Shown here one piece after another: positions 19,801 to 22,800 of a stretch of 64,000 nucleotides of DNA. Every line of letters begins with the position of its first letter. Within the stretch, counting starts at the first letter, position 1. The DNA is taken from assembly GCF_046105845.1 (NCBI RefSeq), contig NZ_CP151004.1; one strand, 5' to 3'. The stretch comes from Escherichia coli. GTDB lineage: Bacteria > Pseudomonadota > Gammaproteobacteria > Enterobacterales > Enterobacteriaceae. The position numbers were made by a program.

Positions 19801-22800
19801 GCGGCGCACGGGGAATAAAGTCGGGGATCTGTTCCTGAAGCGCCTTATACCAGGCGGCAATTTGCGCTTTAAGCGCAGCGGTTAATGCCATGAGAAAACC
19901 TGAAATACTGTATAAACAGCCAATATTGTGGCATTTTTCGGTTTTCAGGGGTAATGGTTTTTCTGTTTCTGGAAAGCGGCTCGCAAACACGCCCTCTCGC
20001 AATATATTTGATTGAAAGTTCGACGGCACGGTGAGCGCCAGTCTTCAGGGCAGAAAACAGCAAGTGATACCGCATTTCGTGGTTACACTTGCCGCCGTCA
20101 TCGCTTCGCAGGAACCGGTATTGCCCGCCCTGGCCTGAGCCAGGGCCATCAATGCCATTATTCTGCTGCGATCTTTACAGCCATGCGTCTGGCGTCCACT
20201 CGGATAAAACTTTAGAAAAACGATATTGTGCGTAGCGGACCATATCACGATATAACGAACTTATACGCAGCTGGTTGGCCTCTTCATTAGACAGATTATT
20301 GAAATCAAGCAATACCGCTTTGTATGTATTAAAAGTTTGACTGCTTATCATATTTTCATCTAAAGAGTGAGCTTTAGCCAATAAAGCAAATGCATAACGT
20401 TTTAAAGTTTTTGACGCATCAGGAATACCGTTAAAGACACTACTGTGAGAAATATTTGCAAATACGGCAGACAGGCAGAAAAATATTTTAGACTTATCAC
20501 TTTCACTGGCCTCGTTGAGATCCAGCATCGTTAATAGACTAGCGTAATGTTTATCTTTCAGAGTATGCTGTTGCCATTGTTCTGAATCGTTCATTAAAGA
20601 GGAAAATGATGAATTAAGTTCTGTTGGTTGATTATTGCATTCGGGCACAAAATCTGTTTTTCGCATTATTGCTGACATAAATACATCACGAATATAACCT
20701 TTGAATCCAAGAGCATTGAGAATCAATTGGTGTTTCTTATTTTTCTGCGCATATTCCCATCCTTTTGCAAATAAAGGAAATGCACGCGTACAAATCGTTT
20801 CTGGATCATCTCTGACATCTTCATGGGTATCCTGCAAAGATGGATATATAGAGTAATTATTCCAGATAGTCTTTTTCTTAACCTCTGGCTCAAGCATTGA
20901 GATTAACGCCTGGTGCGATAAGCGCATTACTCGCCCAGAGTTATCGGATGATAACAGGATATAACATTTATTATCTTTATCTAACAACCCTTGCTGCTCA
21001 TTGAAATTCAACTTTATTTCTTCAGTAACGAATTGTTTTATTTCAGGTAATGCAAGATAATTGTGATAAAGGTCAAATGCTAAGTTTTTCTCTTCAACAC
21101 TTCCGTTTTCAAAAAGCAAATCAATAAATTGAATAAATCTATAATTTTCAGAAACCATCAACTCTGGTCTCTTTAAAAAGAGAGCATGGAAAAAGTTAAT
21201 TATTTCCGCATCGTTATTCAGATTTTTATTTCTGAAGTAGCACAGATACGTATCCAGTGCGTGCATAACAAGTTCATGATCGCTATTAAGTGGAGATTTT
21301 ATTAATTTTGCTATTATGGACGATGGGAATGCCACTATGTCTCGCAGCGTGAAGAGTTCCATGCCATCAGTTAATTGCGTTAATAAATCTTTTACTGTTT
21401 GTATGTTATCAGTATTTTCATTGAAAGATTCGTCTGCCAGAGAATCCAGTTTTTCTATCATTCCTCCGATAACAAATATATCTTTTTCGCTCTCAACGTC
21501 ATGATTAGACATATCATCAACGATATCTTTAACTTTACTATCACTTTCAAATAGTTTTTCTCTCACACCATTATTGGCGTTTACTACAGAAGTCGCATCA
21601 TAATAGGATGGCGGAATAATAACAGAGAATTCGTTAGTGAATATAGAATGATATGCAAGATTATCATCATTCAATTTCTCGCCAACGTTTAGCGAATTAA
21701 CATTCCTCAGAATATGCATCTCAATCTGACTGTCAGAAAGACTTTTAGAAAAACCACTACCTTCAGTCAGTTCAATTTTCATCCTGAGTATTTTATTTTT
21801 GAGGTCGGAAAATGTATTTACATAGGGAATAAAAACATCTGACAAAGTAGAGTTGCTTTTCTTTCCATTAATATTATCTATTCGGACGGTGATCCCTTTT
21901 TCATCATGAGGAATTGCATCATTCATATTTATAGAGATAACATTTTCATGTCTGGATTGCCCGGTTTTAATCGTCATATTGATATCGTTTGCGCTGATCT
22001 CCGAAATCTCACTGACGAATTTTTTAAATGCATTATAGCGCTGGTGGCCAGCATTAAATTTGCCAAATGAAACATAATATGCGAAATGTTCAAGGAAACC
22101 ATGTAATTCCAGTAAATTAACCGGGTCAGAACCCTGCACCATATTTAATAACATCGTCGCATAACCATTGCATTTTGAACAATCCATACATCGCTCCTTT
22201 GCACTTGAATGATCTGCGAATCATAAGCCTGGCAAAATGGGGAATCTTACAGAAATCGCTCATTTTTAACTTTTCGCACAGTAAACTCAGGATAACCCGG
22301 TTGTGAAAGTTTGCTGCTGCACCGCTCTAAACAGACTGGTGATCAATCTTTCTATCAATAAGCAGAAATGAGCGATTTTTGATAGTTTATTGGAAATGCT
22401 AAAGATATACGGTAATGAAACGACTGCACACTTTATTTTGCTTAGGGAGATAGTCGGATAAACTATAGACAATGAAAATAATAAAATCAGGGACAGAATC
22501 AAGCTAATACTAAATCACATATCTCATAATAATTTTCCAGATGATGAACAAACACTTTATGCAATAGCATGTTTATTCCAGACTTTCCCAGAATTTGTTT
22601 ATGAATATCAACCAATGTTATTAACAATAATTCAGATTGCAAGAAGAAATAATTTCATTGCCATTTTAAATACACTAGATAGATCATAAAGCAAATTTAT
22701 TAAAAACAATAAAATCAGACATGACATTCATGTCTGACCGTGTTACCTGAATAAAGGGCAAAAGCCTGTGATACTCTTTTGCCCTTACATGGTATTACTG

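What the first reader, a model, noticed from the sequence alone, without database searches (positions are those of the whole stretch)
22700..22790. Twin hairpins at the rhlE-proximal islet junction
Two stable inverted repeats lie between the rhlE stop (22795) and the islet: aagggcaaaag-N11-cttttgccctt (22754-22786), and cagacatga-cat-tcatgtctg (22716-22736) followed on the minus strand by a T-rich run. Together they look like the rhlE terminator, and they also mark where core sequence gives way to AT-rich islet sequence, so they help define the right-hand junction of the insert.
Basis: seen in the sequence. Interest (0 to 1): 0.25.

Follow-up and report, generated by a model that had tools for sequence, protein, structure and literature searches.

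The report
Islet-borne rhlE terminator hairpins
Two real hairpins sit just after the rhlE gene, but they belong to the inserted espX2 islet and not to the conserved genome, and only one looks like a standard transcription stop signal, so the finding is ordinary.

Summary
HP1 is 22715-22737 (10-bp stem, 3-nt loop). HP2 is 22754-22786 (11-bp stem, 11-nt loop). They fold stably (z -4.8 and -6.0), and repeats this long are rare in the window (7 sites against about 0.7 in shuffles).

The junction claim is wrong in detail. Homology to ybiA-type E. coli (about 4,880 of 5,423 matching complete genomes) ends at the rhlE stop codon (22793/22794), 8 bp right of HP2. Both hairpins are therefore islet sequence. 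K-12-type genomes carry a different hairpin plus REP elements there.

The islet is the catalogued espX2 islet (ECs0876/Z1019, S-loop57 of O157:H7 Sakai). The hairpin module occurs once per genome in 541 of 5,426 complete E. coli genomes and always abuts rhlE.

In 157 genomes a 561-aa orphan ORF converges on rhlE across the hairpins. The window keeps only its last 104 codons (22378-22689, with an internal stop), after a 1.49-kb deletion between 10-bp direct repeats.

Only HP1 read on the rhlE-sense strand scores as a canonical intrinsic terminator, with the tail UUUUAUUGUUUUU. HP2 is a weak or accessory hairpin. Covariation is uninformative, and no 3'-end data were found. This is an ordinary terminator of low interest.

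The parts
22795..24156 (-). rhlE CDS (DEAD-box RNA helicase, 453 aa). The stop codon is at 22795-22797. This is the last core sequence before the islet.
   Evidence: ORF list; Pfam DEAD and Helicase_C domains; annotated rhlE in matching E. coli genomes.
22793..22794 (.). Right-hand core/islet junction. Homology to ybiA-type genomes ends here, directly abutting the rhlE stop codon.
   Evidence: All partial megablast hits start at query 795, which is window 22794. Ungapped comparison anchored at the stop gives 100% identity over 30 nt to the right and 20-35% to the left. Sequences were read.
22754..22786 (-). HP2: AAGGGCAAAAG-N11-CTTTTGCCCTT, an 11-bp stem in the window allele and 9 bp in the majority allele, with an 11-nt loop. 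It is islet-specific and a weak or accessory 3'-UTR hairpin.
   Evidence: d-scores are -20 to -42 on minus and -45 to -72 on plus. The loop and core stem are invariant in 13 genomes.
22715..22737 (-). HP1: TCAGACATGA-ATG-TCATGTCTGA on the minus strand, a 10-bp stem with a 3-nt loop. This is the stem-loop of the predicted intrinsic terminator of rhlE.
   Evidence: Terminator scan hit at 22739..22713 on the minus strand. Stem dG is -12.5 kcal/mol and the d-score is +16.9 on minus against -56.8 on plus. The local 41-nt fold gives -15 kcal/mol, z -4.6.
22700..22714 (-). U-tract of the terminator (minus strand TTTTATTGTTTTTAA). The predicted rhlE mRNA 3' end is around 22705-22710, giving a 3' UTR of about 88 nt.
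   Evidence: T-tract score 4.47; 6 T in the first 8. The 3'-end position is inferred, not measured.
22378..22689 (+). 3' remnant (104 codons) of a 561-aa orphan ORF that converges on rhlE in the long islet form. The window copy has a premature TAA at 22459-22461. The original stop is at 22687-22689, 25 nt before HP1.
   Evidence: Alignment to L003 and translation. The ORF has no Pfam domain. A single E. coli-only protein cluster was found.
22378..22387 (.). Deletion scar: the single remaining copy of the 10-bp direct repeat TTTGATAGTT. Two copies flank the 1,487 bp that are missing here relative to the long islet.
   Evidence: alignment blocks; junction sequences in L003 at 2514 and 4001.
20175..22187 (-). 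espX2 (type III secretion effector, 670 aa), same strand as rhlE and downstream of it. It is the cargo gene of the islet. The hairpins lie between rhlE and the espX2 upstream region.
   Evidence: Annotation of matching genomes; SopA_C domain; ECs0876/Z1019, S-loop57.
19986..19987 (.). Left-hand core/islet junction, about 95 bp upstream of the dinG start codon. The variable segment is therefore about 19987-22793 (about 2.8 kb), against about 0.74 kb (ybiA plus REPs) in K-12-type genomes.
   Evidence: Alignment A2.

Best explanation
The two hairpins are the rhlE-proximal end of the espX2 islet (S-loop57 type), not core sequence. This islet replaces ybiA and its REP-containing flank between dinG and rhlE, and its right boundary is the rhlE stop codon. 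In islet-bearing strains the whole rhlE 3' UTR (about 88 nt) is therefore islet-encoded.

RNA polymerase leaving rhlE on the minus strand transcribes HP2 8 nt after the stop and HP1 16 nt after that. HP1 is a 10-12-bp stem with a 3-nt loop, followed at once by UUUUAUUGUUUUU, and acts as a canonical Rho-independent terminator. This ends the rhlE transcript and shields the downstream, co-oriented espX2 gene and its AT-rich regulatory region from read-through. HP2 is not a competent terminator on its own. It most likely serves as a 3'-UTR structural element or weak back-up pause site.

Ancestrally the hairpins lay between rhlE and a convergent 561-aa islet ORF. That ORF is reduced here to a 104-codon pseudogene remnant.

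Shown: the anatomy, stability, boundaries and distribution. Inferred: termination itself and the insulation of espX2.
For: The hairpins are present and stable. Homology to ybiA-type genomes stops at 22793/22794, and the left junction is at 19986/19987. The 112-bp hairpin module is present exactly once in 541 of 5,426 genomes, always next to rhlE. It has no genuine plasmid match, the only 'plasmid' hit being a 4.9-Mb record, no phage match, and no match in any other Enterobacteriaceae species representative. HP1 on the minus strand is picked by the terminator scan. It is the only hairpin/strand combination with a positive terminator score: +16.9 in the window allele and +10.9 in the O55:H7/O157 allele. 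The core stems of both hairpins are invariant across 13 diverse islet-bearing genomes. Substitutions fall at the terminal or loop-closing pairs, and one variant (A to T at the stem base) lengthens the U-tract.
Against: There is no experimental 3'-end evidence. The searches for espX2 and its locus tags found nothing on transcript ends at this locus, and both Term-seq queries failed on syntax. There is no covariation: 16 of 21 pairs never vary and there are 0 compensatory changes. The hairpin segment is no better conserved (about 96.4%) than the surrounding islet DNA (about 95.4%), so selection on the structure is not demonstrated. The HP1 stem is AT-rich for a terminator, with only 4 G-C pairs. 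In most genomes the loop-closing pair is lost on the rhlE-sense strand (A-U becomes C.A). The d-score formula was applied from memory with modern energy parameters, so its threshold is approximate.
Confidence: 0.75

Rival explanations
1. One reading: the twin hairpins are the native (core) rhlE terminator and sit at the point where core sequence gives way to islet sequence.
For: They are the first structures after the rhlE stop, and GC content drops across this region, from 0.60 at 22800-23099 to 0.30 at 22500-22799.
Against: ybiA-type genomes share no similarity left of 22794. They carry a different hairpin (GCCGGGC-TAT-GCCCGGC) and REP elements instead. The hairpin module is found only in the 541 islet-bearing genomes.
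Confidence: 0.03
2. The hairpins form a bidirectional terminator region for a convergent gene pair. As well as stopping rhlE, HP1 and/or HP2 terminate or stabilise the plus-strand transcript of the 561-aa islet ORF. In the window they are a relic of that role.
For: In the ancestral long form the ORF's stop lies 25 nt before HP1 and 105 nt before the rhlE stop, so the hairpins sit exactly between convergent genes. Both hairpins fold at least as well on the plus strand, z -6.0. The majority HP1 variant keeps the loop-closing pair as U-G only on the plus strand.
Against: On the plus strand neither hairpin is followed by a U-tract. The tails are CCGUGUUACCUG and ACAUGGUAUUAC, and the d-scores are -45 to -72. 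HP1 lacks the A-tract on its minus-strand 5' side that a symmetrical bidirectional terminator would have. The 7CC variant keeps HP2 paired (G-U) only on the minus strand. The ORF is a pseudogene remnant in 384 of 541 genomes, yet the hairpins persist unchanged.
Confidence: 0.15
3. The hairpins are functionally neutral palindromic relics of the foreign DNA and rhlE transcription is ended otherwise, for example by Rho in the untranslated AT-rich DNA.
For: There is no excess conservation over neighbouring islet DNA and no covariation. The K-12-type rhlE flank also lacks a canonical terminator, with a d-score of -28 for its proximal hairpin, so rhlE may not depend on one.
Against: Two perfect 10-11-bp inverted repeats 17 bp apart are far beyond chance. 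HP1 has the complete stem and U-tract anatomy in exactly the orientation and position expected for rhlE.
Confidence: 0.07

Closest known systems
Rho-independent (intrinsic) transcription terminators of E. coli
   Same: HP1 has the defining anatomy. It is a stable stem-loop (10-12 bp, 3-nt loop, about -12.5 to -15 kcal/mol) followed immediately by a U-rich tract (UUUUAUUGUUUUU). It lies in the sense orientation a short distance after a stop codon.
   Different: The stem is relatively AT-rich, with 4 G-C pairs. It is preceded by a second long-looped hairpin (HP2) that does not meet the terminator criteria. Termination has not been measured.
Strain-specific loop S-loop57 of E. coli O157:H7 Sakai, carrying espX2 (ECs0876 / Z1019)
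   Same: It occupies the same position between dinG and rhlE, carries the same cargo gene and has the same hairpin module. O55:H7 and O157:H7 genomes match the 607-bp espX2-rhlE spacer at 95.4%.
   Different: The window carries a minority allele of the hairpin segment. Only 20 of 541 genomes are at least 99% identical. The majority differs by 3 substitutions and a U-tract shorter by 1 nt.
K-12-type rhlE 3' flank (ybiA with REP/BIME elements)
   Same: It occupies the same slot, beginning at the base after the rhlE stop codon, and it also begins with a hairpin.
   Different: The sequence is unrelated. The hairpin is GC-rich, has no U-tract and is followed by REP-like palindromes. REP elements are multi-copy, whereas the twin hairpins are single-copy in every genome.
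Bidirectional terminators between convergent genes
   Same: In the ancestral long islet form the hairpins lie between two convergently transcribed genes.
   Different: They lack the symmetrical A-tract/U-tract flanks. Only the rhlE-sense direction has a U-tract.

Membership tests
Intrinsic (Rho-independent) terminator: HP1, minus strand | Stable stem-loop of about 5-14 bp with a short loop of 3-8 nt | tested here: met
   The stem is 10 bp (12 with G-U pairs) and the loop is 3 nt. dG is -12.5 to -15 kcal/mol, z -4.6.
Intrinsic (Rho-independent) terminator: HP1, minus strand | U-rich tract immediately 3' of the stem | tested here: met
   The tail is UUUUAUUGUUUUU, with 6 U in the first 8 and a T-tract score of 4.47. 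It is conserved in all 13 genomes aligned, with a 1-nt length difference.
Intrinsic (Rho-independent) terminator: HP1, minus strand | Located downstream of, and in the sense orientation to, a transcription unit | tested here: met
   It lies 58 nt after the rhlE stop codon on the same strand.
Intrinsic (Rho-independent) terminator: HP1, minus strand | Transcript 3' ends map to the U-tract; termination is Rho-independent | not testable with these tools
   The searches for espX2 and its locus tags found no 3'-end data for this locus, and both Term-seq queries failed on syntax.
Intrinsic terminator: HP2 | Short loop and a U-tract after the stem | tested here: not met
   The loop is 11 nt. The tail is UAUUCAGG, or UUUAUUCA if the stem is trimmed to 9 bp. 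In the majority allele the tail is AUUAUUCA. d-scores are -20 to -50 on minus and -45 to -72 on plus.
   Homology ends at 22793/22794, 8 bp to the right of HP2. Both hairpins are absent from ybiA-type genomes.
REP/BIME or other dispersed repeat | Many copies per genome | tested here: not met
   There is exactly one place per genome in all 541 genomes that hold it, and a single copy in the window.
Any curated Rfam RNA family | Match at or above the family gathering score | tested here: not met
   Over 21900-23100 on both strands there were only two sub-threshold chance-level hits, algC at E 6.6 and Hrs13 at E 3.5.
Bidirectional terminator | Hairpin flanked by an A-tract 5' and a U-tract 3', so that both strands read a U-tract | tested here: not met
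   The plus-strand tails CCGUGUUACCUG (HP1) and ACAUGGUAUUAC (HP2) are not U-rich.

The most novel reading that the evidence does not exclude
The islet boundary is the rhlE stop codon, so islet-bearing and ybiA-type strains express the same helicase with two entirely different 3' UTRs. The islet-encoded version (about 88 nt: HP2, a 16-nt AU-rich linker, then the HP1 terminator with its U-tail) has the general layout of a 3'-UTR-derived, Hfq-binding small RNA. Alternatively it could set a different rhlE mRNA stability or expression level. Either way, acquiring the islet would rewire a core RNA-metabolism gene or add a regulatory RNA.
Probability: 0.06. Interest if true: 0.45.

Novelty: new member of a known kind. 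Interest (0 to 1): 0.1.

Why it matters
It matters mainly for annotation. The right boundary of the espX2 islet should be placed at the rhlE stop codon (22793/22794), not at the hairpins. The hairpins should be counted as islet content that gives rhlE a replacement terminator and separates rhlE from the effector gene. The case also shows a small genomic replacement swapping the entire 3' UTR of a core gene. That would be worth a look only if transcript data showed an effect on rhlE expression or a stable 3'-UTR RNA.

Tried and rejected
- **Rfam:** a scan of 21900-23100 at permissive E-values gave only chance-level hits.
- **Exact-pattern scan for the HP1 stems** (free 5-nt loop) across 100,044 species-representative genomes: 6 hits, all in unrelated MAGs (Muribaculaceae, Lachnospiraceae, a methanogen and others). 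None is in Enterobacteriaceae, so HP1 is not a widespread element. E. coli's representative genome did not match, and closely related species with diverged stems would be missed by an exact pattern.
- **Covariation test on 13 diverse islet-bearing genomes:** uninformative, because the sequences are about 98% identical.
- **Plasmid or phage origin of the hairpin-bearing segment:** the only 'plasmid' hit is a 4.9-Mb record that is evidently a chromosome. There was no phage hit.
- **Homologues of the convergent 561-aa ORF:** a single E. coli cluster with no Pfam domain, so no help in tracing where the hairpins came from.
- **Local alignment of the islet's rhlE-proximal 607 bp against the ybiA-type intergenic region on both strands:** only 12-30-nt chance matches.
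- **Literature searches for espX2, ECs0876 and Z1019:** these confirmed the islet's identity but gave no transcript-end data.

Full report
**Observation.**
- HP1 is cagacatga-cat-tcatgtctg at 22716-22736. It extends to a 10-bp stem at 22715-22737, or 12 pairs at 22713-22739 with G-U pairs.
- HP2 is aagggcaaaag-N11-cttttgccctt at 22754-22786.
- rhlE is the minus-strand ORF 22795..24156, with DEAD and Helicase_C domains. It is annotated as rhlE in matching genomes.
- On the minus strand HP1 is followed directly by TTTTATTGTTTTTAA, and the consensus scan reports this site as terminator-like.
- The 101-nt segment folds into the two independent hairpins on either strand: -33.5 kcal/mol, z -4.8 on minus and -33.4 kcal/mol, z -6.0 on plus. 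None of 200 shuffles folds as well.
- Perfect inverted repeats of this size occur at 7 distinct sites in the window against 0.7 expected, and two of those sites are these.

**Where the core ends.** A megablast of 22000-23400 against 5,426 complete E. coli genomes matched 5,423 of them.
- Only 384 genomes cover the whole query. Every partial hit listed begins at query base 795, which is window 22794.
- In a K-12-type genome (L002: dinG, ybiA, rhlE) the bases after the rhlE stop are ...gcctgatgccgggcatagcccggcataaaaga|TTACTGCGC. In the window they are ...ctcttttgcccttacatggta|TTACTGCGC.
- Anchored at the stop codon, identity is 30/30 to the right and 20-35% to the left. Local alignment of the two flanks finds only chance matches.
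- The left junction is at 19986/19987, about 95 bp upstream of the dinG start.

The variable segment is therefore about 19987-22793, and both hairpins lie inside it. The boundary is the rhlE stop codon, and the hairpins are islet DNA.

**What the islet is.** The 670-aa minus-strand ORF at 20175-22187 is annotated espX2, a type III secretion effector, in all matching genomes. It carries a SopA_C domain. The literature identifies espX2 as ECs0876/Z1019 in 'S-loop57' of O157:H7 Sakai, absent from K-12 (PMC2323221; PMC2749873). The islet is already catalogued.

**Three allelic forms.** A blastn search of the espX2-rhlE spacer found 541 genomes with the rhlE-proximal part. Of these, 384 have the window's arrangement and 157 have a longer one.
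- In the long form (L003, L011) an intact 561-aa plus-strand ORF lies between espX2 and rhlE and converges on rhlE. Its stop corresponds to window 22687-22689, 25 nt before HP1.
- The window lacks 1,487 bp of this ORF. It keeps the last 104 codons (22378-22689) with a premature TAA at 22459-22461.
- The deletion lies between two copies of TTTGATAGTT, of which one copy remains at 22378-22387. The long form is therefore ancestral, and the hairpins originally lay between convergent genes.
- The ORF is an orphan. It has no Pfam domain, and the only match among 5.8 billion sequences was a single E. coli cluster.

**Distribution of the hairpin module.**
- The 112-bp segment 22686-22797 occurs exactly once in each of 541 genomes, always abutting rhlE, at 93.8-100% identity.
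- It has no phage match. Its only 'plasmid' match is a 4.9-Mb record that is evidently a chromosome.
- An exact scan for the HP1 stems in 100,044 species-representative genomes gave only six chance-like hits in unrelated taxa.
- No Rfam family matches.

The module is not a dispersed repeat, and it was found only in the E. coli collection.

**Which strand, and which hairpin?** I scored each hairpin on each strand with the d'Aubenton-Carafa stem and T-tract measure. The formula is from memory and uses modern energies, so the threshold is approximate.

| Hairpin and strand | d-score |
|---|---|
| HP1, minus (rhlE sense), window allele | +16.9 |
| HP1, minus, O55:H7/O157 allele | +10.9 |
| HP1, plus | -57 |
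| HP2, minus, window allele | -20 to -42 |
| HP2, minus, majority allele | -50 |
| HP2, plus | -45 to -72 |
| K-12-type rhlE-proximal hairpin, both strands | -28 |

HP1 is an orientation-specific intrinsic terminator candidate for rhlE. HP2, with its 11-nt loop and U-poor tail, is not a credible independent terminator.

**Conservation.** I aligned 13 diverse islet-bearing genomes.
- The core stems are invariant. Changes fall at terminal or loop-closing pairs.
- HP1's closing A-U becomes C.A in most genomes, with a C.U intermediate in one strain.
- HP1's outer pair is lost in two strains, through an A-to-T change that lengthens the U-tract.
- HP2's second pair becomes A.A in most genomes.
- There is one G-U change in strain 7CC and one disruptive G-to-T change in NCTC9112.
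- Formal counting gives 16 of 21 pairs that never vary and no compensatory change.
- The hairpin segment (about 96.4% identity) is no better conserved than the whole spacer (about 95.4%).

Comparative data neither support nor refute selection on the structures.

**Mechanism (inferred).** In islet-bearing strains the whole rhlE 3' UTR is islet-encoded. Transcription leaving rhlE meets HP2 after 8 nt and HP1 after a further 16-nt linker, and should terminate in the U-tract at about 22705-22712, giving a 3' UTR of about 88 nt. This ends the rhlE message. It also keeps read-through out of the AT-rich region upstream of the co-oriented espX2 gene, whose start is at 22187, 528 bp further on. The anatomy, boundaries and distribution are shown here. 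Termination itself and the insulation of espX2 are inferred, and no 3'-end data for this locus were found.

**Rivals.**
- *Bidirectional terminator for the convergent pair:* possible as an extra ancestral role, but there is no plus-strand U-tract.
- *Neutral relic:* unlikely, given the complete, correctly oriented terminator anatomy and the rarity of such repeats.

**Verdict.** The feature is an ordinary intrinsic terminator inside a catalogued strain-specific islet, of low interest. The only mildly unusual point is that the replacement swaps the entire 3' UTR of a core gene.

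Noticed in passing
window 22378-22689 (+); L003 2627-4312; L011 1819-3504: A pseudogene remnant (104 codons, premature TAA at 22459-22461) of a 561-aa E. coli-only orphan ORF with no Pfam domain. The ORF is intact in about 157 complete genomes and truncated by a 1,487-bp deletion between 10-bp direct repeats (TTTGATAGTT) in 384.
   Followed up: yes
window 22101-22800 compared with L011, L003, L004, L001: The short (deleted) and long islet forms each occur in both hairpin-allele lineages. The window and 19KM1831 (short) are 99.8% and 99.4% identical to N3 (long) and to each other respectively, while O55:H7 (short) resembles ST2747 (long). The deletion endpoints are the same. 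So either the deletion between the 10-bp repeats recurred or recombination has shuffled the segment.
   Followed up: partly
window 24349-24372: A perfect 10-bp-arm palindrome, TCTTAATCAATCATTTGATTAAGA, lies in the rhlE-cecR intergenic region, 13 bp upstream of the annotated cecR start (about 24385). It is plausibly the operator of the TetR-family regulator CecR. This is inference and was not tested.
   Followed up: no
window 3994-4023: A 30-bp perfect palindrome, TTCTGCATGGTTATGCATAACCATGCAGAA, is the longest in the window. Its context was not examined. It could be a protein-binding operator.
   Followed up: no
window 2186-2213, 7462-7487, 16715-16740: Three further perfect hairpins with stems of at least 10 bp. 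AAAAATCCGCC-CCGAGA-GGCGGATTTTT looks like a bidirectional terminator with A- and T-tracts. The other two are GCCTCCCTTTC-CCCC-GAAAGGGAGGC and AGCCGGATGA-CATGGC-TCATCCGGCT.
   Followed up: no
window 24200-32200: The core flank is at best 98.5% identical to any of 5,426 complete E. coli genomes, and rhlE is 94-98% identical. The window therefore comes from an Escherichia lineage not closely represented among complete genomes. The nearest at the islet is the dog isolate 19KM1831.
   Followed up: partly
L002 4771-5001 (K-12-type rhlE 3' flank): In ybiA-type genomes rhlE is followed by a GC-rich hairpin without a U-tract (GCCGGGC-TAT-GCCCGGC) and then by REP-like palindromes. The common allele of rhlE therefore has no canonical intrinsic terminator by the same scoring (d = -28).
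   Followed up: partly
window 19906-19925: The sequence TACTGTATAAACAGCCAATA, just inside the core at the left junction, matches what I recall (from memory) as the dinG SOS/LexA box. The islet replacement leaves the dinG promoter region intact.
   Followed up: no
H34, NZ_AP045800.1 (strain 23CRST031): An IS1A insertion interrupts the espX2-rhlE spacer in this genome. The match is split into two pieces spanning 1,381 bp.
   Followed up: no
H119, NZ_CP134663.1 in the plasmid collection: A 4.9-Mb record listed as a plasmid in PLSDB carries the chromosomal rhlE/espX2 locus. It is evidently a mislabelled chromosome.
   Followed up: no
rhlE CDS: window 22795-24156; L002, L004: RhlE length varies between strains: 453 aa here, 454 aa in the K-12 type and 455 aa in O55:H7. 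Ungapped identity falls off within about 100-300 nt of the stop, which is consistent with indels in the arginine/glycine-rich C-terminal tail.
   Followed up: no
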